From the IMG/VR virus record IMGVR_UViG_3300042691_032761: a DNA stretch of 64,000 nt; one strand, given 5' to 3'. Position 1 is the first letter of the stretch; every line of letters begins with the position of its first letter. The DNA is from a virus. The notes beneath the pieces are model-generated. The model was given only the letters and a program-made list of their open reading frames with translations. It did no database searches and was not told the origin of the DNA. Position numbers and translations under genes: made by a program. Below, piece after piece: positions 1,019-23,434 of the stretch.

Positions 1019-3568
1019 ATGCCAAGACACAATCTTATATCATTACGATCAGGAACAGAAAATCAATGGACTTCTACTAATCCTATTTTATCTAGTGGTG
1101 AACCAGGATTCGAAATAGATACCGGACGTGTCAAGATAGGCAATGGAACAACAGCATGGAGTGGATTGTATTATAATTCTATTATTCCAACAGGATTAAT
1201 TGCTGGAAATAATATCAATATAAATCTAGGAACAAATGGATCTACCGCAACAATAGGGGTTAGTGGATCCGTACAACAGTCAGAGTCTTTGGTAACTAGT
1301 GTTTTTAATGAAACTGGTGCTACTCTTTCCAAGATGACTGCTGTTTATATTAATGGTGGTCACGGAGATTTGCCAACTATCCAAAAGGCTATTGCTACTA
1401 GTGATATTACTAGCGCTGGCACCTATGGACTAGTATATCAAGATATTGATAATATGGAAATTGGTCAAGTTGTAGTTTTTGGATTAATGGGAGGAGTCAA
1501 TACTGATCCTGCTCATGGAGGCATTGCTGGTGCTACAGAGGGCTCTGTGCTATATCTTAGTCCCACAGTTTCAGGTGCTATTACAACTACGAAACCATAT
1601 GCCCCTGACCATATTGTTTCTATTGGTACCGTTGTTAGAGTTCATCAAAATGAGGGTGTTATAGAAGTTAGAGTTCAAAATGGATTTGAATTAGAAGAAC
1701 TACATAATGTTGCGGTTACTGGTGCTACAAATGGTCAGTTCTTGCAATATAATAGCGGTAGTGGATTATGGGTTCCTAGTAGTAGTGGAAACTTTACTTC
1801 ACTAAGCGTTAATAATACTGGAGTTGTAGTTGGTAGCGGTGGCTCTGCTGGGTATTTAAGTAAATTTACAAACTCAAACACTATAGAGAATAGTTCAATA
1901 TATCAAGAATTTTCTAATAAAATTAGAATAGGAGAAAATCAGCAAGGCTATATCGTTGTATCTGATGACTCTTATGGAGGAGAATTAGGAATATTAACTA
2001 ATCTTGATGAAGTTATAGCAATTAAATTCCAAGATGGATCTTTTAGATATGGCGGTGGATATGTTGGTGGAGAAAATATTGTTGTTGCTTCTAATGGGAA
2101 TGTTGGAATAGGAACCGACACGCCTACTGAAAAATTAACTGTTAATGGTAATGGTAATTTTATTGGAAATCTTACTGTTAGTGGCAATCTATCTCCAGGA
2201 TCCATTAGTGGAGTTGATCCTTTATACATACAGACACAAACGGCGAGTATGATCTTAAATGATTATACTATATTCTTACAAAATGATGCTAAGTCGCAAG
2301 GTAATTTTTATCTAGAAGGACCATCAATAGTACAAGATGCTTTGCTAGTAACAGATTCTGATAGAATCGTAACATCATTGTCTTCTCCCTCTTTAACAGA
2401 AATTGGTTATGTTGGCGGCGTTACTAGTAATATACAAACTCAATTAGATAGTAAACAAAATACACTAATAAATCCTATTACTGGTACTGGTGTAGCAAAT
2501 CATATTCCTTACTGGAGTAGCACTAGCGGATTGCTTGCTGATAGTAATCAGTTGGTTTGGGATAGTACTAATAATAGGTTGGGAATAGGAACAGCTAGTC
2601 CGACCAGCACATTACAAGTTAGCGGACTAATAACGGCTAATAGTGGAACATTTGAGTCTATTAATGTTACTGGCCCAGCCGTTTCTAGCGGTTCATTAGT
2701 ATCATTTACGCATCCAGATAATACCGGCTCTTCCGATTATGATGCAATTATTTCTGGACAATTACATCTTACTAGAAATGCAAATAATGGAATATATAAT
2801 TTAGCTACAGAGGCTAGCTGGGACCAAAGTTTAAGCCCATCTGGAACAATATGGAACAATGAAGGCTGGAGCAATCTAGAAAATTTTAAATCTAGAACAT
2901 ATTCTGCTTTATGGAGTGCTGTTGGTGGTCAGCTTGGATACAATCTTCCAGGTGCTGAATTGATAATGAAACACGTTGATACTAATAGATATTGGAAAGT
3001 TAAATTTACTAGCTGGACTCAAGGTGGCGGCGGCGGATTTGCTTATGAAAGACAAGAGATATTTATTGATAATGCTATGAATGTTAGTGGTAGTTCTAAT
3101 TTTAATGATTTATTAACTGCTAATAAGTTATCAGCAAGTGAATTAACTTGTGAAAAATTATCTGTTATTGGAGAAGATTTAACGGTTGGTGGTCAGACAC
3201 CAAGCATAAGCCTAAAAGGATATTCATGGTTTGGTAAAGTCGATGGATCTGTGGGCATAGCAGTTTCAGTTAATAATTCTGGAACATTTGGTAGTTCGTC
3301 AGCTTTTGCTACCTTTGGTGGATTTAATGAAAGCGTAACAGCATATACTCCTATGTGTTTTGCTTCTAATTTTTCGCCACAATTATATCTAAATACTAAT
3401 GGTAATGTTGGTATAAATAAAGCAACCCCATCACAAAAACTTGATGTCAATGGAAATATTAATATTAGTGAAAATTTAATCTTCAATAACAATACATCCT
3501 TGTCAGAATCTGAGTTAACAACTATAATAAATAGTAAAAATATATACATGTGGTCTAATTATATATAG
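1019..3568 (+). CDS. Tail fibre protein with Mtd_N/hyaluronidase-type N-terminal anchor
   Basis: N-terminus LRSGTENQWTSTNPILSSGEPGFEIDTGRVKIGNGTTAWSGL matches the common phage fibre N-terminal motif. Three (N/R)xGIxxxxPxxxLxVxG shaft repeats follow. Confidence 0.8.
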   Translation: MPRHNLISLRSGTENQWTSTNPILSSGEPGFEIDTGRVKIGNGTTAWSGLYYNSIIPTGLIAGNNININLGTNGSTATIGVSGSVQQSESLVTSVFNETGATLSKMTAVYINGGHGDLPTIQKAIATSDITSAGTYGLVYQDIDNMEIGQVVVFGLMGGVNTDPAHGGIAGATEGSVLYLSPTVSGAITTTKPYAPDHIVSIGTVVRVHQNEGVIEVRVQNGFELEELHNVAVTGATNGQFLQYNSGSGLWVPSSSGNFTSLSVNNTGVVVGSGGSAGYLSKFTNSNTIENSSIYQEFSNKIRIGENQQGYIVVSDDSYGGELGILTNLDEVIAIKFQDGSFRYGGGYVGGENIVVASNGNVGIGTDTPTEKLTVNGNGNFIGNLTVSGNLSPGSISGVDPLYIQTQTASMILNDYTIFLQNDAKSQGNFYLEGPSIVQDALLVTDSDRIVTSLSSPSLTEIGYVGGVTSNIQTQLDSKQNTLINPITGTGVANHIPYWSSTSGLLADSNQLVWDSTNNRLGIGTASPTSTLQVSGLITANSGTFESINVTGPAVSSGSLVSFTHPDNTGSSDYDAIISGQLHLTRNANNGIYNLATEASWDQSLSPSGTIWNNEGWSNLENFKSRTYSALWSAVGGQLGYNLPGAELIMKHVDTNRYWKVKFTSWTQGGGGGFAYERQEIFIDNAMNVSGSSNFNDLLTANKLSASELTCEKLSVIGEDLTVGGQTPSISLKGYSWFGKVDGSVGIAVSVNNSGTFGSSSAFATFGGFNESVTAYTPMCFASNFSPQLYLNTNGNVGINKATPSQKLDVNGNINISENLIFNNNTSLSESELTTIINSKNIYMWSNYI

Positions 3569-3576
3569 GAGAAGAT

Positions 3577-3960
3577 ATGGCTACAGCACCAGTTTTTTCA
3601 GTAATTCCAAGAGTTGGTTTAGGACAGGTAAGCACCGCGAATACTAATAGAGATGGTACAGGTACTATAGCTACTATTTTAACTGGTGGCTCATCTGGTA
3701 CAAAAATTACAGAGATTGTTGTTGAGGCAACTGGCACAACGACCGCCGGAATGGTTAGAATATATCTAAATGATGGAACTAATACTAGATTATTTGATGA
3801 ATTTCTTGTCATAGCAGTAACTGCCGGTGCCTCAACTGTTGTTTATAGAGGATCAAGAGTTTATGAAAACTTAACTCTTCCAAATAATTCATGGAGTATA
3901 AGAGCCTCAACTCATAACGCTGAAACATTTAATGTGTTTGTATTAGGTGCTGATTTATGA
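3577..3960 (+). CDS. Small virion structural protein (tail-fibre associated, beta-rich)
   Basis: AGGAG RBS upstream; 127 aa; ATGA overlap with the next gene; fibre-cluster context. Confidence 0.6.
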   Translation: MATAPVFSVIPRVGLGQVSTANTNRDGTGTIATILTGGSSGTKITEIVVEATGTTTAGMVRIYLNDGTNTRLFDEFLVIAVTAGASTVVYRGSRVYENLTLPNNSWSIRASTHNAETFNVFVLGADL

Positions 3961-11390: not shown

Positions 11391-11711
11391 ATGAATCAAG
11401 AACAAATAATATCACAATTAGCAGTTAAAAGATTAGAAACCACAATGATCGGAGCTTTAGCAAGATTCGAAAATGTTTTTGGATATTTATGGGGACATCA
11501 TAAAAATATAGATGAGCCACTATCAGAATCAGAAATACATTTTGATAATATGTGGCAAGATGTTAGGAATAATATTCTTAATCATGGAAATCAGCAAATA
11601 AGAGCAATAACAGATGATATATCCAGAAATCTAAGAAATGGACCGGATGTAAAATTTAATTACAAATTTAAAGTTAAACCGTTAAACAAGGAGAATGACA
11701 ATGCAAACTAG
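11391..11711 (+). CDS. Hypothetical protein
   Basis: 106 aa; AGGA RBS; operon context. Confidence 0.6.
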   Translation: MNQEQIISQLAVKRLETTMIGALARFENVFGYLWGHHKNIDEPLSESEIHFDNMWQDVRNNILNHGNQQIRAITDDISRNLRNGPDVKFNYKFKVKPLNKENDNAN

Positions 11712-12567
11712 ATCTTTTACTGCTAAAGCCAACGATAAGGACTCTGAATTCCTAGTAAAATCCCCTTCTTTAAATGATCAGAGAGAAGCACAAAAGGTTT
11801 ATAACCAAGCCTTTACTGACGCAATAAAGAGTAAGAGTGTTGTAAGAGCAAAGCTAGATGATCTTCTAAGAGATCAAGGATTATGGAATGATGAAAAACA
11901 GGCCGAATACTCCACTATGCAAAAACAACTATTAGATGGAGAAAGACGATTAGCTAAGGGCGGATTTGGTATTAATGAGGCCAAGCAGTTAGCATTTGAG
12001 ATGCAAGAAATTAGAGATAAAATAAAAGACCTTATTAGTGTTAGAACTAGTTTAGATAATCATAGCGCTGAAGGACAGGCAGATAATGCTAGATTTAACT
12101 ACTTAGTATCTGTGTGCGTGGTGTATAAAGATAGTGGAGAAAAATATTTTTCAAGCTTAGAGGATTATCTAAATAAGTCAACAGATCCTGTTGCTATTAG
12201 TGGTGCTCAAAATTTGGCTAATATGATATATGGCTTGGATAATAATTTTGAAAAAAATCTTCCAGAAAACAAATTTTTATGCAAGTATAAGTTTGTTGAT
12301 GAAAAACTAAGAAGAATAGATAAAAAGGGAAGGCTGATAGATGCTGATGGACGCTTAGTAGATGAAAATGGCAGAATAATAGATGAAAATGGTAATTTTA
12401 TAGATAGAGATGGCAACAGAGTAGACGAAACAGGAGAATATGTTGTTGAATCAAAACCATTTTTGGACGAGGAAGGCAACCCAATATTGCCACCAGACGA
12501 AATTAAGCAACCAGAAAAGCCAGTTGCTATTGCCTCTTCACAGCCAGAGACAAAGCAAGACTCTTGA
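11701..12567 (+). CDS. Putative tail assembly chaperone with DxxG heptad repeats
   Basis: AAGGAG RBS favours ATG 11701; last gene before the TMP; repeats IDKKGRL-IDADGRL-VDENGRI-IDENGNF-IDRDGNR-VDETGEY. Confidence 0.55.
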   Translation: MQTRSFTAKANDKDSEFLVKSPSLNDQREAQKVYNQAFTDAIKSKSVVRAKLDDLLRDQGLWNDEKQAEYSTMQKQLLDGERRLAKGGFGINEAKQLAFEMQEIRDKIKDLISVRTSLDNHSAEGQADNARFNYLVSVCVVYKDSGEKYFSSLEDYLNKSTDPVAISGAQNLANMIYGLDNNFEKNLPENKFLCKYKFVDEKLRRIDKKGRLIDADGRLVDENGRIIDENGNFIDRDGNRVDETGEYVVESKPFLDEEGNPILPPDEIKQPEKPVAIASSQPETKQDS

Positions 12568-12652: not shown

Positions 12653-15600
12653 ATGTCAAGATCTTTTAATTTAACAGCAGAATTAAATTTAAGAGGACCA
12701 TCTAATATTCGGCCGATCATTGCTGATATTAGAAGGCAGTTGACTGGTATAACAGCAAATGTTAATGTAACAGTTAATAATACGACTACTCGTAATGTCA
12801 ATAATCTACAACAGTCTGTTACTAGATTAAACACCGCCCTCACCGCAACAAGAGGAACAGCAACAAATGCTACCGCAGCACTAAATGCTTTTGCAAGAGC
12901 AGCGGCAAATGTTAATAATAATATTGGAAATATACCTCGTAATTTAACTAGAATTAATACAGGTGCTGGTGCAACAACTACTACTCTTAATCAAGTTACT
13001 AGAGCCACTCAGCAAGCAACAGTTGGTTTTGAAGACTTTGGTAGACAATCAGCATTGGCTGTTAGACGTTTTGCTGCTTTTGCAACCGTGACTAGCGTAA
13101 TATATAGATTCTCTAATGCGGTTACTTCTGCAACATCAGAATTCATAGATTTTAATAGAGAACTTGTTAGAGTTGCACAAGTTACTGATTCTAGTTTGTC
13201 AGAACTTAGACCACTAGTCTCTCAGATCACTAATTTGTCTACTAGCTTAGGCGTAGCATCTAAAGATTTGATTCAAGTTTCTAGTACATTAGCACAGGCT
13301 GGTTTAAGTGCAAGAGACACAGAAAAAGCTCTTAGGGCTCTTGCTCTTAGTGCGTTAGCCCCGTCGTTTGATAGCCTAAGCGATACAGTAGAAGGATCTA
13401 TTGCTTTAATGAGACAGTTCGGCATTAGTGCAGGAGATTTAGAGGATGCATTGGGTAGTGTAAATTCTGTTGCTGCAAAGTTCGCAGTTGAAGCAAGCGA
13501 CTTAATTACTGCTATTCAGCGTACCGGCGGTGTGTTTGCAACAGCAAGTAAAGGTGTTAGCGAGGGCAAGGATGCTCTTAATGAGTTTTTAGCTGTATTT
13601 ACAAGTATTCGTGCTACTACTCGTGAAAGCGCAGAAACTATTGCTACAGGCTTAAGAACTATTTTTACTCGTATTCAAAGAGCGGATACTATTGATGCAT
13701 TAAAAGCATTCGGAGTTACTCTTACTGATCTAGAAGGTAAATTCGTTGGTCCATATGAAGCTGTAAGGAGACTAAGCGAAGGATTAAGCAGACTCGATCC
13801 TAGAGATTTAAGATTTTCTCAAATTGTTGAAGAACTTGGCGGTTTTCGACAGATTGGTAAAGTGATTCCACTTATTCAGCAGTTTGCCACAGCACAAGCA
13901 GCGCTAAAGGTTGCTCAACAAGGACAAGGATCATTAGCAAAAGACGCATCAACTGCACAACAAAGTTTAGCAAATCAAATTGCTAAAGTACGAGAAGAAT
14001 TTACTGCTCTTATAAGATCATTAGGAGAAAGTTCCACATTTCAAACATTCGTTAGATTAAGTTTGGATCTTGCTAGCGCATTAATTAGATTGGCTGATAG
14101 TGCTAAAACTGTATTACCAGCATTAACTGCTATTGCTGCATTTAGGGGCGTCTCCGCTCTTACAAGGTTTGGTGCTGGATTTGCTGGTGGACTAAGAAGA
14201 CAAAATAATGGAGGTCCAGTAAGAGGATTTGCTAGGGGAGGAATAGTTCCAGGGGTAGGCAGCGGAGACACTGTTCCAGCTATGTTAGAAGCTGGAGAAT
14301 TTGTAATTAGAAAAAAAGCAGTAGAAAAAATTGGAGCTGGTAATTTACATAAAATAAATAAATATGCCACTGGAGGTAAGGTCAAAGATCTTTTATTAGA
14401 TAAGCCACTACTAAAAGCTAAATATGATACATCTAATATTGAGGATCTATATAGTTTTATAAGGATAGATAGGAGCAAACAAAATAAATTATCACAAAGT
14501 AGAGAAAAATATAGAGATAAAGCAGAACAAATATGGAGTCAAGCATCTTCTGCTTACTCTTCTAAGGGATCTCTTTCTGGTGCTAATACTTTAATAAGAA
14601 GAAAAACTGGAATAAATCTTCCATCTAAATTAAGTAGTAAAGATTTAAATCCAAATAATAAAGATAGTCAAAGACTAAATAAAATTCAAGGATCATTGGC
14701 AGAAAAAGAAGTCTATAATAAAATGGGTAATCTAAAACAATTACCAACAAAAGCTGGTGCTGACTTTACAATTGGTGGATCCGCAATCAACTTTGTTGAA
14801 GTTAAAAATAGACTAGAACCAACATCAGATAATGATTTAAGAGGAAAAGCATTACTAGGTCATCAATACCTTAGTGGAAAACAATATCTTAATAATAAGT
14901 TAGATAAAACTCCTAGACTAACTATTTCTTTATTTTCTAGCAATGAAGGAGATTATAAGAAAAAAAACTTTGGAGGATTAATTCAAAAATTTGCTCTCGG
15001 AGGAAAAGGAAGAGCATTAGGAGCACGAAGTAAATTTAAAGAATTAGACGCAAGCGAATTAGATAAACTTAGTACAGCTGATTTAATTAAGTATGCAAAA
15101 AGACAGGCTCGTGATATTTTTAGTACAGGCGGGGCTGGGATGGCGATGCGTAGCAGATTTATTGAAACCCCAGCAAATAAAATAATTCCAGAATTAGAGC
15201 CTCATTTAACATCATATATGGGGAAAAAAGGATTTTGGAGAGAAGAGATTGCCCCCTTTGGAAGACCATCAAAACAACAAGCAGCGAAAGCATCAAAAAC
15301 AGGAAGAGAAGCAGCTCTTAAAAAACAAGAAGCAAGACAAGCAGACGAAGTTGCGGCCAGAGCACAACAGTGGAAATTAATACGATCAGGATCTAAAATA
15401 GATTCTTATTTACTGTCTTCTTTAAAAGATCCTATTTTATCTGACTACAAGTCAGCCAAAGCTGGGCAGCCGCTAGCAAAAGCTTTTCATGATACTAGAT
15501 TAAGACAAGCTGTTAATCAAGCATTAGATAATTATGATGATTTTGATTATTCTCCAGCAAAGATCGATAAACTAGTTAGTGGAATGGCATCAAAAAGATT

Positions 15601-18600
15601 TGCAATAGGAGGATCTGTAGAAGATAAAGTTCCGGCACTATTAACTCCTGGTGAATTTGTAATTAATAAAAAAGCTGCTAGCAGAATAGGAGCTAGTAGA
15701 CTACATCAATTAAATAGAGCAGATAGAATTAAAGGATTTAATAAGGGCGGAGCTGTTGGAGGAATTCAGAAACTTGCTGCCGGCGGCTTTCCAACGGCTT
15801 TAACACCAGCTATGAGTGGACTATCCGCAAAAGAAACGGCTAGATTAAGTTCTGCTATAATGAATAATGTTGATGCTTTTAATACTTTGGAGGCTCAAGT
15901 TTCTGCTCTTCCAACAGATCAAATGTTGAAAGCTATGAGAATATTTGCCTCTAAACTTGAGGGAGGAGCAACAGATATAGACCGAGCGGCTACAGAAGCG
16001 GCAACATTGGCTCAATCTGGCGGTGGAGGAAGTAGACAGTCTAAAAAAGCAAGAGTAGCAAATTCTGGAGTTACGGTTGGGCCAGCGAATCCAACAACCG
16101 GAATAGTAGAAACAAGACCGACAACTAATCCTGCTGTTAGCGGTTTTGCTGCAAGTCAAGCTAGAATAAATCAAATATCTGCAAACGTTGGACAATATCA
16201 GGCTGGTCAAGATGTTGTTAGTCGTAGAGATACTGTATTAGGTGGTACTACTTCAGGAAATCTATCAAACGCTGGAATGCAACGACTTGCTCAACTAAAC
16301 CAAACAGGAGGAGGATTTGCTCAAAGAGGTCAAGATTATGCTCAAAGAGCACAGGTCTCATCTCAAAAAACTTATTCTGCAAGTTCTTTTGATCCAACAC
16401 AAATTTATCAAGGATTGGCTAAATTAAATCAGGGAATTGCAACAGCAGCTAATGGTTTAACTAGCTTAACTACAGCATCTAAAACTGCTGGTAGTGGTAT
16501 AATGTCTTTAGGCAAAGGAGCATTAGGAGCAGTTGGACGAGGAGCAGGAGGATTAGTTAGTAAAATTGGAGGAGGAGCTTTAAATATGGTGGGACTTGGA
16601 GGATTAGCTTCCAAAGGAGCAGGAGCAGCAATGGGTGGTGGTGGCGGTGGTGGAATGATGGGCATGGTGGCTATGATGGCAGCAGGGCCATTATTGGAAG
16701 CTGCAAGTCAGTCAATGGGAGGAGAAAAAACAGAAGCTGGAAGAAATACTACTGCTGTTGGTGGCGCTATGATGAATTATGCTGCTATTGGAGCAACACT
16801 AGGAAGTGTTATTCCTGGAGTTGGAACCGCTTTGGGAGGAGTTGTTGGAGCAGCGGCTGGTCTTGTTGTGGGTCTTCAGGATGCCACAAAAGCTAATGAA
16901 GAATATGCACAGAGTCAAAGAGAAGCAAAGGCCGCAACAGCATCAGATAAGAGTGGAAAAGCACTAGAAGCATACATGGCCAAACCTGGAGCTGCTCAAA
17001 AACAAGCTTTCATGAGTTCATTTGCTGCCACATCAGAAGCAGAAGCAGCCGTAAAAGCAGGAACAAAAAGACAAACAGCTAGTAGTTTTGGAAAAATGTT
17101 AGGATACCAAGATGAAAATATAAATGATTTTGCAGCAAGAACGGCTAAAACACAAACAGCAGGAGCCGATCAAGCCAAGCAATTTTTAACTGCTGAGATG
17201 ATGAGAACCGGTAAAAATTTTGGTGAAATTAGTAAAACTATGAGTCCAGAACAGTTTAAAACTCTAGCGACTAATATTGCAGAAGCAGATGAAACATATG
17301 CTTATTTCCAGATCCAAAGAGCTAATGAAATTAAAAAACTTAGAGATAGTGGTCGAGGAGCAGAGGCAGATGCTTTACAAGCACAGACCAATGCTGAACA
17401 AGAAAATTTAGCTAAAAATATTGCTGAACGTCAATTAGCAGAAGCATCAGCGGCCGCTCAGGCCAAAGCAGCATCAGAAGCTTCTAAAAAGCTAAATATG
17501 GTAATGATGCAAGCTGTTATGAGTCTTGAAAAATCATTTAATACAATGGAAGAGGTATTAAATAGATCAAGTTTTGAACTTGGACAAATATCTGGCAAAG
17601 CAGATGAAATTTTCAGTGGCAAAGCATCATTAACTAGCTCTACTTTTGCACAAACAAATAATGTTCTTCAAAATCCAAATGCTTACTCTGCGAAAGAAAG
17701 ACAAAATGCTATAAATAGTTCTGCCGCCAGAATGGGACCAGCCGGGGCATTAGTTGGTCGAGTAGCCACATTTGGTGCTCAAGCAACAGAAGAGGCTTCT
17801 AGAAGGGCTAATGCTGTGTTCAATGGTGGAGGAGATAACGAAGCTGTTGGTAATGAGGTTACTAGAAGTTTAACAAATAATATTCTTGCCACGTTTGGTC
17901 CAAATAGTTCCATGTCCCAAACCCTGATTGATGGTGTTAAACGAAGCGTAGACGAGGCAGTAAAAACAGCAAAAGAAAATGGAGAAACGCTCGATCCAAA
18001 TGAATTGGTAGAAAAAGCCACAGGACCACTAAATAGAGCTGCTCAACAAGCGGGTCAATTGTTAATTAAAAATAATGAGAATGTTGCTAAACACTTAGAA
18101 GAGTTGGGTAAGGTTGCTGAAAGAGTAGTAGAAATAGAAAATAGAAGAGTAGAAAGAACAGCAGCATTGGTAGAAATGCAAGCTCAGGGAGGAATATCAA
18201 CCAAAGAAGCACTAGGACAAAAAGTTTCTTTAGACGAAAGAATGAGCGCAAGATTTGCAGGAAGTAGAGCGAGATTAGGAATACAGGACCAAGCTAATTT
18301 TACTCCTCAAAATATTGCCAATATGAGATCTCAAGCTCAAAGAGAGCAAGCTGCATTACAATCACAAATAGATAGAAGATCAAAAGATGTTGGATCAGAC
18401 CCAACTGGCAGAGCAGCGAGAGAGGTTGCTAATTTACAACTAAAACTTGCTAAGGTAAATTCCACAATAGAACAAACTAATAAAGAATTAGAAGATTTAC
18501 CAGGAGCATTAGAAGGAGCTATTAGTGATGTAACATCAGAGATTCAAAATAGAGTAGCAAAATTAGATGCTCAAAAACAAGCATCAGGAGCTTTTGCTGA

Positions 18601-21600
18601 AAAATTAGTAGGAAGCACTCCACAGGAATTGGCTGAATTAGGTAGAACATTTAATTTATTAGATTCTACTCTTAGAGGACAAATAACAACAGTGCAGCAA
18701 TCACAAGTTGCTCAACAAGCATATATTCAATCTATACAAGAAGGAAAAACAGCACAAGAAGCAATGACTGATGCTCAAGCAGCATTTGCTAATGAAAATA
18801 AAAAAGCATTAAGCTTATTTGGAGAATTGACTCAGATCGCCGGAATAGAAGGCCCAGAACTTGACTTAATGAAAGCAGATTTATTAGAAAATTTTGCAAA
18901 AGCACAAGGAGCAGGACTAGAAAATAATCCATTCTTCCAAAGATTGTTAGGAATACTTAGACAAGATCCTGCTCAAAGAGCACAAAACGATCCAGTCTTA
19001 AAAGCTTTACAAGCAAGAATGACAGAACTAAGAGAGCAGCAAGTAGAAGCTGTAAGACTACAAAACGAAGCTGATAGAGGTATTCAAAAACAACTATTAG
19101 AACAAGTTGGTCAAAATATTATAACAAGTTTGGAAGCTACGCAAAGAGCATTTGTTGCAGCAATGAACGATATAGCAATGAGAATGGGAGCGGCTCCTCC
19201 TAGACCAATGCCAGCCAGACCTCGTTCTACCGGAGGATTAATATACGCATCAAATGGACAATATGTTAATTTTCAACCAAAAGGAACAGACACAGTTCCT
19301 GCTATGTTAACTCCGGGCGAATTTGTGGTTAATGCTAAATCCACAAAGGAAAATTTAGGTTTATTAATGTCTATAAATAATAGTCGCGGAGGCAGAATAA
19401 GTTATCTTGCTGATGGCGGAATGTCTGATATTTCCGGAGTCTCATCAAGAACTCAGTCTGCAAAACAAGAAGATATGGCCAGAAGTGGATTAATTAACCA
19501 AAGAGCACTAAGTAATAAAATTGATACCGTTAAAAGCTTATCTAATAATATTAATTCTACCACATCATTTACTAAAGATAATCAAATTCCATCATTAGAT
19601 GGATCAATAGATAACAATCAATCAATTAATAATAAACAATTTAAATCATTATTAATTGGAGTAGATAAAATTTCCAAAGTTATAGAGAATAAGAGTTCTA
19701 AGGGATTATCTAGAGGAGGAGTCGTTTATGCCAGCAGCGGAGGATACATAGGCAACGGCACTCCCGCTATGCTTTCGCCGGGAGAGTTTGTGGTCAACCA
19801 AGCTTCTGCTAAAAAATATGGTGGAGTTTTACAAGCTATAAATAGACAAGATGGTGGAGGCACACCATTTAGCGTTCCTGTATTAGATATGACTAAAGAT
19901 AATAAAGATGGTGTTTTTGTCAGAAGTCGTTACAGAGGACCGAGAGATAAGTTTATGTCCGCTAGAGAAGCAGCATCCGCTGGCATACCGTATAGCACTG
20001 GCACAGGATTTAATACAACTTATTTTGGAAAAAATACAGGAATTACTAAGGCAGACTTTGATGCTTTAACTAAACAAGACGAAAAAGATTTTTCTATATT
20101 CAATCATCCAACATTGGTTTCTCAAGGAAGACAAGCAGCTTTTACTGCTGGCTTGGCAGAAGGAGTGCCGGTCGGTGTCGCTTCATCAACAGCCGGAACC
20201 GCAGCAGCCGCTGGAACAGGAGTTGCGGCTACGGCACTAGGAGTAACAGCACCAGCATGGCTACCAGTGGCTTTAGCAATAACTGCTGCGATTGGAGCAG
20301 GATATGCTATGTCAAAATTGGCAAGAGCAACTTCTAATAAAGCTCTTGCAGCAGGAGGCAGTAATGTTACGATGGATATGATGCAGGAAGATTATCCGTT
20401 ATCTTTTATGGCTGGATCAACACTTGGAGACGCAATTGGTGGAGTAGGCGGGTCTAAATTAGGCTCACAAGCGTTCTCTGGAACATTATCTAAACAACAA
20501 GAGAAATTATTAAGACTAAAAACTATAAAAGAACGTAAAGAAGTTAACGCTGCGATATCTGAATTTAGAGAAAGAGTTGTAGCAAGATGGGAGGATATGT
20601 CTGAATTGGAAGCCTCAGCAATTTCTAGAATGTCAGGGCGTAAAACAGATTTAACTGGTCAAGAAATAATTGATTCAGCTACAGCAAGATTAAAATTATT
20701 AAATCCAAAAGCTAATCCAGATGACTATCTTCCAATAGATTTAGACACAAGGGTTATTAAGGATCCTTTTGGTGATGGTACTATTGGATGGCACAGAAGG
20801 AAAGGTAGAAAAGGAACACCAGAAATACGAACAACAGATCCTCAAGATTTAACTGTTTTACCTCATGAAGCTATTCATGCTATGATTGGAGAAAATCCTC
20901 AAATCCGTGATCTAACGATGGATTTCATCATCAAACATGAAGATTTAATTCAAGAATGGTTATCTAAAACAAAAATGACTGGATATAATTTAGATACTAT
21001 GAAATATGGGACTTCATACAGAATGAGGCAACTTGAGACGAAAATTAATTATACAGATATTCCATCGGTAATTGAAACAGAAAAACTTTTTGCTAGAGCT
21101 TTAAGCGGTAAAGAAACTGCTTCATTAGATTTTATACAAAACACAAAAGGTGGATTAGAATATATTGATAGATTATTAAAACAACAGTCTTCCAGAAGTT
21201 TTTTCACAGATGAGTCAGAAATAATAAAATGGGTTGATAAAAAATGGGATAGATCTAGTTTAGATTCCCTCAAAAAAACCATAGATGATTTTAGAAATAG
21301 AGATAAAAAACTTTATGAAGATATAATGACACATATGGGACCTGGAGGGTATCCCGGAGTTGGAACAAAAAGACTTCCAAAAGATTTGTTAGAATCTTTG
21401 AACGAAATATTTTCTCCACATGCCTCCAGAGCTGGGCCAGAAGAATTTTTAGCAACATTAGCTCAAGATGATTTAACAGGAAATGCTGCTGGTCAACAGT
21501 TGCAAAGACTCGTACAAAGAGAAATATTTGAAAAAGCCGATCAAATAAAATATAAATTTATGGGCTTTCCTGAACGACCCATTGTTGGAGTACCAGAAGG

Positions 21601-23434
21601 ATTAGAAGGATTTAATAATGGTGGTATGGTATATGCTTCAGAAGGCAAATACATAAATTTCAAACCAAAGGGCACGGACACTGTTCCCGCGATGCTAACT
21701 CCAGGAGAGTTTGTTGTTAATGCTAAAGCCACTAAAGATAATTTATCGACATTGCAAGCTATTAATACTGGATACTATGAAAGAGGTGGAATTGCTGGTG
21801 TTGATCCTAGTCCAAGTAATTTTGCAAGAAGTATTGTTGGCATGAGAGGAGCCAGAATTAACCAATTAGCACAACAGGGTAAATATTATGTTTATGAGGG
21901 TAATACAGCAATATTAGATGATGATAATGGTAGATTTCCTAATAGATATGCGTCTGTTAGCGGAGCCAGAAATATACAAGAAGCAATTGAGCTTGCTAAA
22001 CAGAAATATGAATGGTTCGAAGGAGGCGGATATTCCCTTAAAGAAGCCTCTGCGATTGAAAGAGGACGTATGGGTTCGACAACATTGGCAGATAAAATAA
22101 TAGACGAATTACAAGATCAGATAATTGAGGGTGGTCCAAGATTATTTACCTCAACAGGATTTAATCAAAAAAATAAACAAGATAAAATTAATGAAATTAT
22201 AAAAAAAATAGATGAACAAGGCGCAAATCCTCAAGAATTATATAGGAAAGCCACCAAAAGACAAAATTATTTAAGACAAGTTGAAAATAATACTAGACTT
22301 GGTCTTAATGTAATAGCAGGATCTGATAGAACAATAAATCTCGGAGGAAGAAGAGAACTATTAGCAACAAAGCTTCTAGAATTACAAAGAGATTATGCTC
22401 AAAAAGAATTAAGTCTTATACCTAGAGTTTGGGATGATATAGCCACAATGAAAGGATATCAAGGCTTACCAAGAGATTACACAACATCTTTTAATGCTCT
22501 TAATCCTAGTAGTCTTCCTGGTCCTGAATATTTTAGTTCTGGCGGCATGTCAATGCCTAAAAAATTTGATAAAACAACCGATCCGGCAGATCGTATTTTG
22601 CAAAGAGCTAATGAAGCAAGATTAAACAACTTTTCGAATATATACGAGTCCCTTTTAGTGAAAAAATATGGAAAATCTATCAAGCCATTTCGTAATACTG
22701 ATGTTTTAGAAAATCTAAGACAATATCAAGAATTTGATTCTCTTTCTGATGAAGAACTAAGAAGTCTAGAAACACAACATATACAATCAAAAATAAATAA
22801 ACAATCAAGATTAAATAAATTCAACTCAGGAGGAATAGTATACGCAAACAAAGGAACTTTAGTTCCTTATCAGCCCAAAGGCACAGATACTGTTCCAGCA
22901 ATGTTAACTCCAGGAGAGTTTGTAATAAATAGACAAGCATCTCAAAAACATCTTGGATTATTACAATCTATCAACAATGGTAACTATTCAAGAGGAGGTC
23001 CTGTTTACCTTGCCGAAGGAACACAAGGAACACAAGCGTTTGATGCTAACATGACCTATTTATCGGATATCTTGAAAAAAGGAGCAGATACTCTAAATAC
23101 AGCATTTATAGAAGCTGTTAGAAAATTAAATAATATTGCTGATAATTCTCCTCAAATAAGACAGGGTACATCAAACGGTGTATCTAATAATCAGAGCAAT
23201 CCTTTGGCTAATATAGAAGCATTGGGCAATAGATTAGACCAGTTTATAGAACAACTAAAAAATGCGGTGCCTTCAACAGTAACTCTAGAGGTTCCAACAG
23301 CTATTCCAGTTAATGTTAATATAAATGGAGCAAGCATTCTTAAAGATGTTCTTGGTGGACCAATAGGAAATATCGTACAAAAAGCTATCAAAGATGCATT
23401 TGATGCAAAAAGTAGACAAAATGAAGGGTATTAA
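12653..23434 (+). CDS. Tape measure protein (TP901-family core) with multiple inserted domains
   Basis: The N-terminal ~500 aa have a TP901-type TMP core (DFNRELVRVAQVT...LAQAG...VAAKFAVEASDL...IATGLRTIF), with long Ala/Gln-rich helical regions. Six PAMLxxGEFV repeats; canonical position after the tail tube and chaperone genes. Confidence 0.88.
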   Translation: MSRSFNLTAELNLRGPSNIRPIIADIRRQLTGITANVNVTVNNTTTRNVNNLQQSVTRLNTALTATRGTATNATAALNAFARAAANVNNNIGNIPRNLTRINTGAGATTTTLNQVTRATQQATVGFEDFGRQSALAVRRFAAFATVTSVIYRFSNAVTSATSEFIDFNRELVRVAQVTDSSLSELRPLVSQITNLSTSLGVASKDLIQVSSTLAQAGLSARDTEKALRALALSALAPSFDSLSDTVEGSIALMRQFGISAGDLEDALGSVNSVAAKFAVEASDLITAIQRTGGVFATASKGVSEGKDALNEFLAVFTSIRATTRESAETIATGLRTIFTRIQRADTIDALKAFGVTLTDLEGKFVGPYEAVRRLSEGLSRLDPRDLRFSQIVEELGGFRQIGKVIPLIQQFATAQAALKVAQQGQGSLAKDASTAQQSLANQIAKVREEFTALIRSLGESSTFQTFVRLSLDLASALIRLADSAKTVLPALTAIAAFRGVSALTRFGAGFAGGLRRQNNGGPVRGFARGGIVPGVGSGDTVPAMLEAGEFVIRKKAVEKIGAGNLHKINKYATGGKVKDLLLDKPLLKAKYDTSNIEDLYSFIRIDRSKQNKLSQSREKYRDKAEQIWSQASSAYSSKGSLSGANTLIRRKTGINLPSKLSSKDLNPNNKDSQRLNKIQGSLAEKEVYNKMGNLKQLPTKAGADFTIGGSAINFVEVKNRLEPTSDNDLRGKALLGHQYLSGKQYLNNKLDKTPRLTISLFSSNEGDYKKKNFGGLIQKFALGGKGRALGARSKFKELDASELDKLSTADLIKYAKRQARDIFSTGGAGMAMRSRFIETPANKIIPELEPHLTSYMGKKGFWREEIAPFGRPSKQQAAKASKTGREAALKKQEARQADEVAARAQQWKLIRSGSKIDSYLLSSLKDPILSDYKSAKAGQPLAKAFHDTRLRQAVNQALDNYDDFDYSPAKIDKLVSGMASKRFAIGGSVEDKVPALLTPGEFVINKKAASRIGASRLHQLNRADRIKGFNKGGAVGGIQKLAAGGFPTALTPAMSGLSAKETARLSSAIMNNVDAFNTLEAQVSALPTDQMLKAMRIFASKLEGGATDIDRAATEAATLAQSGGGGSRQSKKARVANSGVTVGPANPTTGIVETRPTTNPAVSGFAASQARINQISANVGQYQAGQDVVSRRDTVLGGTTSGNLSNAGMQRLAQLNQTGGGFAQRGQDYAQRAQVSSQKTYSASSFDPTQIYQGLAKLNQGIATAANGLTSLTTASKTAGSGIMSLGKGALGAVGRGAGGLVSKIGGGALNMVGLGGLASKGAGAAMGGGGGGGMMGMVAMMAAGPLLEAASQSMGGEKTEAGRNTTAVGGAMMNYAAIGATLGSVIPGVGTALGGVVGAAAGLVVGLQDATKANEEYAQSQREAKAATASDKSGKALEAYMAKPGAAQKQAFMSSFAATSEAEAAVKAGTKRQTASSFGKMLGYQDENINDFAARTAKTQTAGADQAKQFLTAEMMRTGKNFGEISKTMSPEQFKTLATNIAEADETYAYFQIQRANEIKKLRDSGRGAEADALQAQTNAEQENLAKNIAERQLAEASAAAQAKAASEASKKLNMVMMQAVMSLEKSFNTMEEVLNRSSFELGQISGKADEIFSGKASLTSSTFAQTNNVLQNPNAYSAKERQNAINSSAARMGPAGALVGRVATFGAQATEEASRRANAVFNGGGDNEAVGNEVTRSLTNNILATFGPNSSMSQTLIDGVKRSVDEAVKTAKENGETLDPNELVEKATGPLNRAAQQAGQLLIKNNENVAKHLEELGKVAERVVEIENRRVERTAALVEMQAQGGISTKEALGQKVSLDERMSARFAGSRARLGIQDQANFTPQNIANMRSQAQREQAALQSQIDRRSKDVGSDPTGRAAREVANLQLKLAKVNSTIEQTNKELEDLPGALEGAISDVTSEIQNRVAKLDAQKQASGAFAEKLVGSTPQELAELGRTFNLLDSTLRGQITTVQQSQVAQQAYIQSIQEGKTAQEAMTDAQAAFANENKKALSLFGELTQIAGIEGPELDLMKADLLENFAKAQGAGLENNPFFQRLLGILRQDPAQRAQNDPVLKALQARMTELREQQVEAVRLQNEADRGIQKQLLEQVGQNIITSLEATQRAFVAAMNDIAMRMGAAPPRPMPARPRSTGGLIYASNGQYVNFQPKGTDTVPAMLTPGEFVVNAKSTKENLGLLMSINNSRGGRISYLADGGMSDISGVSSRTQSAKQEDMARSGLINQRALSNKIDTVKSLSNNINSTTSFTKDNQIPSLDGSIDNNQSINNKQFKSLLIGVDKISKVIENKSSKGLSRGGVVYASSGGYIGNGTPAMLSPGEFVVNQASAKKYGGVLQAINRQDGGGTPFSVPVLDMTKDNKDGVFVRSRYRGPRDKFMSAREAASAGIPYSTGTGFNTTYFGKNTGITKADFDALTKQDEKDFSIFNHPTLVSQGRQAAFTAGLAEGVPVGVASSTAGTAAAAGTGVAATALGVTAPAWLPVALAITAAIGAGYAMSKLARATSNKALAAGGSNVTMDMMQEDYPLSFMAGSTLGDAIGGVGGSKLGSQAFSGTLSKQQEKLLRLKTIKERKEVNAAISEFRERVVARWEDMSELEASAISRMSGRKTDLTGQEIIDSATARLKLLNPKANPDDYLPIDLDTRVIKDPFGDGTIGWHRRKGRKGTPEIRTTDPQDLTVLPHEAIHAMIGENPQIRDLTMDFIIKHEDLIQEWLSKTKMTGYNLDTMKYGTSYRMRQLETKINYTDIPSVIETEKLFARALSGKETASLDFIQNTKGGLEYIDRLLKQQSSRSFFTDESEIIKWVDKKWDRSSLDSLKKTIDDFRNRDKKLYEDIMTHMGPGGYPGVGTKRLPKDLLESLNEIFSPHASRAGPEEFLATLAQDDLTGNAAGQQLQRLVQREIFEKADQIKYKFMGFPERPIVGVPEGLEGFNNGGMVYASEGKYINFKPKGTDTVPAMLTPGEFVVNAKATKDNLSTLQAINTGYYERGGIAGVDPSPSNFARSIVGMRGARINQLAQQGKYYVYEGNTAILDDDNGRFPNRYASVSGARNIQEAIELAKQKYEWFEGGGYSLKEASAIERGRMGSTTLADKIIDELQDQIIEGGPRLFTSTGFNQKNKQDKINEIIKKIDEQGANPQELYRKATKRQNYLRQVENNTRLGLNVIAGSDRTINLGGRRELLATKLLELQRDYAQKELSLIPRVWDDIATMKGYQGLPRDYTTSFNALNPSSLPGPEYFSSGGMSMPKKFDKTTDPADRILQRANEARLNNFSNIYESLLVKKYGKSIKPFRNTDVLENLRQYQEFDSLSDEELRSLETQHIQSKINKQSRLNKFNSGGIVYANKGTLVPYQPKGTDTVPAMLTPGEFVINRQASQKHLGLLQSINNGNYSRGGPVYLAEGTQGTQAFDANMTYLSDILKKGADTLNTAFIEAVRKLNNIADNSPQIRQGTSNGVSNNQSNPLANIEALGNRLDQFIEQLKNAVPSTVTLEVPTAIPVNVNINGASILKDVLGGPIGNIVQKAIKDAFDAKSRQNEGY
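14228..23010 (+). repeat. Six dispersed copies of the (D)TVPAMLTPGEFVVN module within the TMP
   Basis: Copies begin near 14267, 15623, 19289, 19757, 21677 and 22886. They are conserved at protein level with many synonymous differences. Confidence 0.9.
23177..23191 (+). promoter_or_regulatory. Candidate late-promoter motif GGTGTAT
   Basis: GGTGTATCTAATAAT lies in the TMP 3' end, 260 nt before the next gene, and closely resembles GGTGTATTCAATAAT at 5661. Confidence 0.4.

What the first reader, a model, noticed from the sequence alone, without database searches (positions are those of the whole stretch)
19860..21600. Hydrophobic hairpin followed by an HExxH metallopeptidase-like domain inside the TMP
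Seen: between repeats 4 and 5 there is an Ala/Gly-rich hydrophobic stretch (AAAGTGVAATALGVTAPAWLPVALAITAAIGAGYAM). It is followed by IGWH...EIR...TVLPHEAIHAMI (His at aa 2738) and a later PEEFLATLAQ. Known: G-x-aromatic...HExxH...EE(F/L)xA is the pattern of zincin-like peptidases in phage and plasmid polyvalent proteins. Inference: this is a membrane-inserting segment plus a peptidase that may self-process the TMP or cleave a host target. The EEF motif is about 190 aa downstream, farther than usual.
Basis: partly seen in the sequence, partly recalled or inferred. Interest (0 to 1): 0.72.

Follow-up and report, generated by a model that had tools for sequence, protein, structure and literature searches.

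The report
Zinc-protease-like cassette in tape measure
A 577-residue insert in this uncultured phage's giant tail "ruler" protein holds a short membrane-type hairpin and a divergent copy of an unannotated module. That module always keeps the metal-binding signature of zinc proteases, so the tail probably carries a protease into the host, but neither the fold nor any activity has been shown.

Summary
The hairpin is at aa 2518-2553, HEAIH at 2738-2742 and PEEFLATLAQ at 2929-2938 of a 3593-aa tape measure protein (TMP), between joint repeats 4 and 5. It is not chance: the TMP has only 15 His, and HExxH is expected 0.003 times.

The segment has no Pfam, PHROG, PDB or sequence-database match. However, 80 related TMPs from uncultured phages showed that about a quarter carry HExxH modules, each followed 126-202 aa later by an EEFL-type helix. 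Across 37 modules of five subfamilies, the only invariant residues are H, E and H of HExxH and the second Glu of EEF (E2931 here).

The window's copy is a divergent member. Alignment scores are weak, but three collinear motifs match (0 of 200,000 shuffles).

A confident AlphaFold model of a relative (pLDDT 87.5) puts HExxH and the Glu each inside a helix. The domain is almost all-alpha. No fold search returned a zincin, so that test is inconclusive.

The block aa 2410-2986 is absent from the closest relatives, which makes it a cassette between joints. The hairpin lies next to the module only in this phage.

This scan has noted the same module family in other phage genomes. Verdict: a probable gluzincin-like peptidase cargo, a new variant of a known kind.

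The parts
12653..23434 (+). Tape measure protein gene, 3593 aa
   Evidence: Single ORF. PF10145 PhageMin_Tail at aa 191-394, E 1.9e-22. PHROG tape-measure families 4211, 28, 167 and 1533.
19762..19797 (+). Core of joint repeat 4 (PAMLSPGEFVVN, aa 2371 onward), the upstream boundary of the cassette
   Evidence: Protein repeat. DNA repeat family D2, four copies at 72-81% identity.
19880..21610 (+). Cassette, aa 2410-2986, absent from the closest related TMPs
   Evidence: blastp: window aa 981-2409 aligns to L001 1169-2554, and window aa 2987-3593 aligns to L001 2488-3141. L080 gives the same result. Nothing in the relatives aligns to 2410-2986.
20204..20311 (+). Ala/Gly-rich hydrophobic hairpin, aa 2518-2553: two segments of about 18 aa joined by an APAWLP turn
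   Evidence: String match. Hydropathy 1.77. No Pfam family. T5 Pb2 has a comparable hairpin with a Pro-aromatic-Pro turn.
20312..20728 (+). Gly-rich stretch and predicted long helices, aa 2554-2692, between the hairpin and the HExxH module
   Evidence: Helices appear only in a very low-confidence single-sequence model. The relative's module starts with a confident long helical hairpin. No homologue was found.
20729..21577 (+). HExxH...E module, aa 2693-2975, a divergent member of a family confined to giant TMPs
   Evidence: Alignment A2 has invariant G2707, H2738, E2739, H2742, Y2778, Y2785, G2786, Y2789, E2931 and F2932. hhalign against the family gives E 0.034 with 30% identity over 84 columns. 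Collinear motifs appear in 0 of 200,000 shuffles.
20765..20794 (+). GDGTIGWH (aa 2705-2714), which aligns to the GRG-x-(I/V) strand of the family
   Evidence: G2707 is invariant in A2. The aligned segment is strand 118-121 in the model of L068.
20864..20878 (+). HEAIH, aa 2738-2742: candidate metal ligands H2738 and H2742, candidate general base E2739
   Evidence: Invariant in 37 of 37 modules. The counterpart HELTH 139-143 lies inside helix 135-152 of a model with pLDDT 87.5.
20981..21022 (+). GY-x6-YGTSYR block, aa 2777-2790
   Evidence: Y2778, Y2785, G2786 and Y2789 are invariant in A2. This is the best local match of the family HMM in the window.
21437..21466 (+). PEEFLATLAQ, aa 2929-2938; E2931 is the candidate third metal ligand
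   Evidence: The second Glu is invariant in 37 of 37 modules, whereas the first is Gln or another residue in some. The counterpart lies inside helix 264-284, pLDDT 94-98.
21685..21720 (+). Core of joint repeat 5 (PAMLTPGEFVVN, aa 3012 onward), the downstream boundary of the cassette
   Evidence: The 116-nt repeat D1 at 21630-21745 is 78% identical to 19242-19357.

Best explanation
Window aa 2410-2986 is an accessory cassette recombined into the tape measure protein at its conserved PAML joints. Its second half (aa ~2693-2975) is a divergent member of an unannotated, nearly all-alpha module family found only inside giant TMPs of a clade of uncultured phages.

The module most likely binds one metal ion (Zn2+) through H2738, H2742 and E2931. 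E2739 would be the general base and the invariant Tyr residues (2778/2785/2789) would line the site. That makes it a gluzincin-type metallopeptidase.

The first half of the cassette contains a two-helix Ala/Gly hairpin that would insert into a host membrane when the TMP is expelled ahead of the DNA, holding the module at the membrane.

Shown: the cassette nature, family membership by collinear motifs, invariance of H-E-H...E, and the helical setting of both motifs in a relative. Inferred: metal binding, proteolysis, membrane insertion and delivery.

The substrate is unknown. Because the closest relatives lack the cassette, I favour a host-directed or infection-specific role (envelope or defence proteins) slightly over cutting of the TMP itself at the joints.
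For: 1. The motif is not chance: HExxH is expected 0.003 times in this His-poor protein, and 6 of its 15 His lie in the module.

2. Among 80 TMPs fetched by N-terminus alone, 20 carry HExxH, and every EEF-type motif lies 126-202 aa after one.

3. In 37 modules of five subfamilies, only H, E, H and the distal E are invariant. In the unbiased set, all 13 family copies found by HMM keep them.

4. The window copy shares G, HExxH, Y..YG..Y and EF with the family. hhalign gives E 0.034. All three motifs collinear: 0 of 200,000 shuffles, joint probability about 9e-9.

5. The AlphaFold2 model of L068 has pLDDT 87.5 and pTM 0.73. HELTH lies in helix 135-152, the Glu in helix 264-284, and a strand at 118-121 precedes the HExxH helix.

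6. Sub-threshold Pfam hits among members fall on four zincin families: Peptidase_M91, SprT-like, eCIS_core and Peptidase_M57.

7. Iyer et al. 2017 (PMC5512222) define the MPTases of virion-delivered polyvalent proteins by HExxH on one helix and Glu on a second, with variable inserts between them.

8. Precedent: T5 Pb2 has a hydrophobic two-helix stretch followed by a metallopeptidase motif and is cut between them (PMC10038345).

9. Cassette status.
Against: - No fold search returned a zincin. The rows were filled by the long helical hairpin of the model, so the catalytic part was barely tested.
- The model has only short strands, not the three-stranded sheet of canonical zincins.
- The tools give no coordinates, so the proximity of H, H and E is unverified.
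- No Pfam, PHROG or PDB-sequence match for the window copy or for the family.
- The family HMM does not score the window copy significantly (E 0.89).
- The window copy has Pro directly before HEAIH where 90% of members have Tyr, and a longer strand-to-helix loop.
- The direct model of the window segment failed (pLDDT 35).
- The four zincin Pfam hits are motif-level only and are individually expected by chance over about 900,000 tests.
Confidence: 0.6

Rival explanations
1. The module is a muralytic metallopeptidase, like the C-terminal piece of T5 Pb2. After ejection the hairpin inserts into the outer membrane, and the module digests peptidoglycan peptides locally to open the way for the tail or the DNA.
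For: The T5 Pb2 layout is a hydrophobic stretch followed by a metallopeptidase motif with muralytic activity and cleavage between the two (PMC10038345). Its hairpin has a similar composition and a Pro-aromatic-Pro turn. [quoted passage not shown] No other wall-degrading domain is detectable in this TMP.
Against: T5 Pb2 has no HExxH, so the chemistry class differs. To my knowledge, phage wall peptidases are typically LAS/M23/M15-type, not HExxH. The closest relatives (L001, L080) lack the cassette, so it is not needed for basic penetration. The hairpin-module pairing is unique to this phage.
Confidence: 0.15
2. The module is a conserved metal-binding domain that is not a protease. It could be a structural metal site that locks a helical cargo or ruler segment, or a different hydrolase that uses a His-His-Glu site.
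For: The predicted fold is almost all-alpha, with no match to solved zincins. No family-level match to any peptidase. Invariance of H, E, H and E shows a constrained site, not its chemistry.
Against: The invariant Glu next to the first His (HExxH rather than HxxxH) is the catalytic base of zincins and is not needed for a purely structural site. Mostly helical HExxH peptidases exist, for example the FtsH protease domain (from my own knowledge). Invariant Tyr residues are typical of catalytic pockets.
Confidence: 0.2
3. The HEAIH and EEF strings are chance matches in a helical spacer that only adds length to the tape measure.
For: No database homologue of the window segment. The family HMM score is not significant. 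The single-sequence model has no confidence.
Against: HExxH is expected 0.003 times. Three collinear family motifs appear in 0 of 200,000 shuffles. Ten residues are invariant with the family. His is enriched about tenfold in the module.
Confidence: 0.04

Closest known systems
Zincin-like MPTase domains of phage and plasmid polyvalent proteins (Iyer, Burroughs, Anand, de Souza, Aravind 2017, PMC5512222; Pfam PF18818 MPTase-PolyVal; e.g. ArdC, P1 DdrB, N4 vRNAP)
   Same: HExxH on one helix and a Glu on a later helix, with a variable insert between them. Embedded in a very large protein that leaves the virion with the DNA. Modular, and sometimes present in more than one copy per protein (L057 and L070 each have two HExxH modules). 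The proposed roles are the same: self-processing or attack on host proteins.
   Different: No sequence match to PF18818 or to any other peptidase model. The insert is 126-202 aa. The predicted fold is nearly all-alpha without a clear three-stranded sheet. The carrier is a tape measure protein, which that paper does not mention (0 occurrences of 'tape measure').
Phage T5 tape measure protein Pb2 (Boulanger et al. 2008, as cited in Linares et al. 2023, PMC10038345)
   Same: A TMP with an Ala-rich hydrophobic stretch compatible with two membrane helices, followed by a metallopeptidase motif. The hydrophobic part is proposed to insert into the host membrane after expulsion, and the peptidase part to act in the periplasm.
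   Different: Pb2 has no HExxH; its record cites InterPro IPR000834. In T5 the pair sits at the C-terminal end and is part of the core design. Here it lies at 67-83% of the length, inside an accessory cassette that the nearest relatives lack.
Thermus phage P23-45 gp96, a 5002-aa TMP with a fused virion RNA polymerase (PMC10770324)
   Same: A giant TMP carrying an enzyme that passes through the tail. It is described as also holding membrane and metallopeptidase domains.
   Different: The cargo there is an experimentally shown RNA polymerase at the N-terminus. Here the cargo is an untested HExxH module in an internal, exchangeable cassette.

Membership tests
Tape measure protein (PF10145 PhageMin_Tail) | Match to the family model above its curated threshold, in a very long helical protein of a tail gene block | tested here: met
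   PF10145 E 1.9e-22, 80.5 bits against a cut-off of 33.2. PHROG TMP families also match.
Gluzincin-type zincin metallopeptidase (general) | HExxH motif lying within an alpha-helix | tested here: met
   HEAIH at 2738-2742. The aligned HELTH 139-143 lies in helix 135-152 of a model with pLDDT 87.5. For the window copy this rests on alignment. Pro2737 implies a helix that starts at the motif.
Gluzincin-type zincin metallopeptidase (general) | Glu on a downstream helix serving as third metal ligand | tested here: inconclusive
   The distal Glu (E2931) is invariant in 37 of 37 modules and lies inside helix 264-284 of the model. Its distance to the two His could not be measured, because the tools give no coordinates.
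Gluzincin-type zincin metallopeptidase (general) | Mixed beta-sheet (three or more strands) packed on the active-site helix | tested here: inconclusive
   The model shows only short strands at 6-9, 61-62, 68-69 and 118-121. The window copy has a longer strand-to-helix segment that could add strands, but its own model failed.
Gluzincin-type zincin metallopeptidase (general) | Structural similarity to solved zincins | tested here: inconclusive
   Foldseek against PDB and BFVD gave no match at E <= 0.001. VIA-align rows cover model residues 7-116 only, which is the helical hairpin.
MPTase-PolyVal (Pfam PF18818) | Sequence match to the family model | tested here: not met
   No PF18818 hit for the window segment at E up to 10. 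PF18818 is not among the 25 most-matched of 40 families listed for the 37 modules at E up to 10.
T5 Pb2-type hydrophobic stretch plus metallopeptidase in a TMP | Hydrophobic stretch of about 40 aa compatible with two membrane helices, upstream of the peptidase motif | tested here: met
   aa 2518-2553, hydropathy 1.77, turn APAWLP. The T5 counterpart was inspected.
T5 Pb2-type hydrophobic stretch plus metallopeptidase in a TMP | Same peptidase motif class as Pb2 | tested here: not met
   T5 Pb2 contains no HExxH, HxxEH, HxxxH or HxH string.
Any metallopeptidase | Metal-dependent peptide-bond hydrolysis | not testable with these tools
   Requires a purified protein.

The most novel reading that the evidence does not exclude
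Giant tape measure proteins of a large clade of uncultured freshwater phages carry a previously undescribed, almost all-alpha family of HExxH...E metalloproteases as exchangeable cassettes. In this phage one such protease is coupled to its own membrane hairpin. The result would be a membrane-anchored protease injected ahead of the DNA that cuts host envelope or defence proteins rather than the wall or the TMP itself.
Probability: 0.3. Interest if true: 0.7.

Novelty: new variant of a known kind. Interest (0 to 1): 0.55.

Why it matters
Tape measure proteins are the first phage proteins to enter the host envelope. Enzymes riding on them act before any phage gene is expressed.

A conserved, unannotated HExxH...E module that is swapped in and out at fixed joints would extend the 'polyvalent protein' idea from head-packaged proteins to the tail ruler. 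It would also add a new, mostly helical branch to the zinc-protease-like enzymes.

The work yields concrete residues to mutate: H2738, E2739, H2742 and E2931. It also yields a well-folding relative (the L068 module) that can be expressed even though the phages are uncultured.

The idea itself is not new. TMP-borne peptidases and MPTases in injected giant proteins are both known, and this scan has already flagged the same module family in other phage genomes.

Tried and rejected
Searches that found nothing:
- The window segment aa 2560-2995 found nothing in 1.84 billion representative proteins, GenBank phages, IMG/VR by peptide patterns or the word-indexed 5.8-billion set.
- Pfam, PHROGs and PDB-sequence searches were negative even at E up to 10.
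- A scan with the L061 module returned only itself.
- The family profile found no PDB sequence, no GenBank phage and no standalone homologue, only two fragments of 165 and 684 aa.
- The first half of the cassette (aa 2410-2700) has no relative among the 80 TMPs or elsewhere in this TMP, and the hairpin has no Pfam family.
- Literature searches for TMP plus HExxH, zincin or metalloprotease found no description of such modules.

Models and fold searches:
- The single-sequence AlphaFold model of the window segment is unusable (pLDDT 35).
- Fold searches with the good L068 model listed no zincin among the shown rows. The rows were helical hairpins and bundles, so nothing can be said about the catalytic part.

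Weak or rejected leads:
- ESM Atlas look-alikes scored 0.85 or less (LPD23, LPD1, Peptidase_M26_C, ATLF). These are leads only.
- The family HMM does not detect the window copy significantly, so homology rests on collinear motifs and hhalign.
- A diiron (double ExxH) reading was rejected because only one ExxH is conserved.
- Pfam on whole TMPs of L057 and L068 found nothing beyond PhageMin_Tail. The HAD-like and P-loop strings seen there by eye are therefore unconfirmed.

Full report
**Observation.** The window holds one 3593-aa ORF at 12653-23434 (+). It is a tape measure protein (TMP): PF10145 matches at E 1.9e-22 and several PHROG TMP families match.
- hydrophobic stretch, aa 2518-2553
- IGWH, aa 2711
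- TPEIR, aa 2722
- HEAIH, aa 2738-2742
- PEEFLATLAQ, aa 2929-2938

Six PAML-type joints lie at aa 542, 994, 2216, 2371, 3012 and 3415, so the features sit between repeats 4 and 5. The protein has only 15 His, six of them between 2714 and 2923. HExxH is expected 0.003 times, and it is the only HExxH in about 21,000 aa of long ORFs in the window. The hairpin is one of two strongly hydrophobic regions, with hydropathy 1.77.

**The segment alone is an orphan.** Residues 2560-2995 matched nothing in:
- Pfam, PHROGs or PDB sequences, even at E up to 10
- 1.84 billion representative proteins read exhaustively
- GenBank phages
- IMG/VR by peptide patterns
- the word-indexed protein set

A single-sequence AlphaFold model was useless, with pLDDT 35.

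**Relatives give the answer.** The first 560 residues of the TMP retrieved 160 relatives in IMG/VR, and 80 were kept (53-86% identity). Most encode TMPs of 2000 to more than 4000 aa.
- Twenty of the 80 contain HExxH.
- Most belong to one family with the pattern tGRG-x-(I/V), then about 17-20 aa, then LYHE(M/L)THQLF, then GY-x6-YGRSYK, then GKEEFLTTL. Four smaller subfamilies exist (L061 HEGAH; L039 HESTH; L057/L070 HETFH; L008 HEMRH).
- The EEF-type motif occurs only in TMPs that have HExxH, and always 126-202 aa downstream.
- Further scans of IMG/VR and of JGI metagenomes brought the main family to 35 distinct sequences with a median pairwise identity of 45%.

**Conservation.**
- With the window copy first (A2, 28 sequences), the invariant residues are G2707, H2738, E2739, H2742, Y2778, Y2785, G2786, Y2789, E2931 and F2932.
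- With 37 sequences from all five subfamilies (A3), the only invariant columns are H, E and H of HExxH and the second Glu of EEF. The first Glu is Gln or another residue in some members, so E2931 is the candidate ligand, not E2930.
- To avoid circularity, a family HMM was run on the 80 TMPs that had been fetched by N-terminus only. It found 13 copies (E below 1e-90), and all keep H, E, H, E and F.

**Is the window copy really a member?** By score alone the case is weak. hhalign gives E 0.034 with 30% identity over 84 columns, and the family HMM gives E 0.89. The HMM's two local matches nevertheless fall exactly on GY..YGTSYR and PEEFLATL. The three family motifs are present in the right order and spacing. 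No such combination arose in 200,000 shuffles of the module, and the product of the single-motif frequencies is about 9e-9. I accept it as a divergent member. It deviates in two ways: Pro instead of Tyr directly before the first His, and a 31-aa rather than about 18-aa segment between the Gly strand and the motif.

**Structure.** AlphaFold2 on A3, with the L068 module as query, gave pLDDT 87.5 and pTM 0.73.
- The module begins with a long helical hairpin (helices 32-57 and 72-114).
- A short strand at 118-121 follows; this is the GRG-x-V segment.
- A loop leads to helix 135-152, which contains HELTH at 139-143.
- Seven short helices follow, including the Tyr-rich block.
- Helix 264-284 contains EEF at 276-278, with pLDDT 94-98.

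Both motifs are therefore mid-helix, as in zincins, with a strand just upstream. The domain is otherwise nearly all-alpha and lacks an obvious three-stranded sheet.

Foldseek against PDB and BFVD gave nothing at E <= 0.001. Both VIA-align runs were filled by matches to the helical hairpin (model residues 7-116), so the catalytic part was barely tested. The tools give no coordinates, so I could not check whether the two His and the Glu meet. The zincin fold is therefore neither confirmed nor refuted.

Weak, motif-level Pfam hits among the 37 members fall on four zincin families: Peptidase_M91, SprT-like, eCIS_core and Peptidase_M57. Given the number of tests, these hits are not significant on their own.

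**Cassette.**
- In the closest TMPs (L001 and L080, 78-86% identical at the N-terminus), window aa 981-2409 and 2987-3593 align contiguously, and nothing matches aa 2410-2986.
- The block is bounded by joint repeats that are also repeated at the DNA level: a 36-nt core at 72-81% identity, and a 116-nt unit at 78%.
- In relatives, the HExxH modules sit at very different positions (aa 1023 to 3698), and each ends in a ...GG joint.
- All 54 module copies in the loci fetched by module lie in ORFs that run off the fetched DNA on at least one side.
- No standalone homologue was found.
- The first half of the cassette, including the hairpin, has no relative anywhere. A hairpin next to the module is seen only in this phage. 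The other TMPs have only their main hydrophobic region, which corresponds to window aa 1383-1409.

**Mechanism.** The best reading is a gluzincin-like metallopeptidase cargo. H2738, H2742 and E2931 would hold the metal, and E2739 would activate water. The module travels inside the tail as a mostly helical segment and folds or acts after the TMP is expelled.

[quoted passage not shown] Their proposed roles are self-processing or attack on host proteins (PMC5512222).

The hairpin-plus-peptidase layout has a functional precedent in T5 Pb2. There, a 46-residue hydrophobic stretch is followed by a metallopeptidase motif with muralytic activity, and the protein is cut between them (PMC10038345). I checked the T5 sequence. 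It has a similar Ala-rich hairpin with a Pro-aromatic-Pro turn but no HExxH. P23-45 gp96 shows that a giant TMP can carry a working enzyme through the tail (PMC10770324).

Because the nearest relatives lack the cassette, it is accessory. That argues against an essential role in tail assembly and mildly favours an infection-specific target.

**Comparison and novelty.** The module works like an MPTase, but a defining test of PF18818 membership (a sequence match) fails and the fold test is inconclusive. I therefore do not file it under PF18818. I found no paper describing HExxH modules in TMPs.

Earlier notes of this scan report the same HE(M/L)TH...EEFL modules, and the 'giant TMP with swappable enzymes' theme, in other uncultured phage genomes. 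This is therefore a recurring, already noticed feature of the clade, and this window adds a divergent, hairpin-linked copy.

Verdict: real and non-random; a probable metalloprotease cargo; a new variant of a known kind.

Noticed in passing
window 12653-23434 (joints at aa 542, 994, 2216, 2371, 3012, 3415): Six PAML(T/S)PGEFV joints. Three of them share a 116-nt DNA repeat at 66-78% identity. Cassette gain or loss relative to L001 and L080 maps exactly to a joint, so the joints look like recombination points.
   Followed up: partly
L057:14843-16408 and L070:11276-13336: Two HExxH motifs in a single TMP. L057 has HEAIH at aa 1736 and HETFH at 1877. L070 has HELTH at 1788 and HETFH at 2094. The HETFH type has GR-x-E-(V/A)-x-PVL in place of GKEEFLTTL.
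   Followed up: partly
L068:14549-15826 and the other main-family loci: The main HE(M/L)TH family is conserved for about 230 aa upstream of HExxH (blocks such as PFDR..F..SF.KISR and DGSFSYD). The unit is therefore larger than the catalytic part and may hold a further domain.
   Followed up: no
L057 (about aa 1620-1640 of its TMP) and L034 (just after its module): By eye, there is a DxDxT string (FDFDDTLV, HAD-phosphatase-like) in L057 and a Walker-A-like GAAGSGKSS in L034. Pfam on the whole L057 TMP found nothing beyond PhageMin_Tail, so both are unconfirmed.
   Followed up: partly
window 11391-11711 and 11695-12567: Two overlapping ORFs (106 and 290 aa) lie directly upstream of the TMP. This is the usual place of the tail assembly chaperone pair made by a programmed frameshift. 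It was not examined.
   Followed up: no
window 16790-16880 (aa 1383-1409) and the Gly/Met-rich run before it: The main hydrophobic region of the TMP, conserved with L001 and L080, includes a run of seven Gly followed by Met-rich residues. It is the likely canonical channel-forming segment, distinct from the cassette hairpin.
   Followed up: no
L136:17122-20781:- (phage T5 Pb2): The T5 hairpin has a PYPFSIP turn between two Ala-rich segments, and the window hairpin has APAWLP. A Pro-aromatic-Pro turn may be a common feature of TMP membrane hairpins.
   Followed up: no
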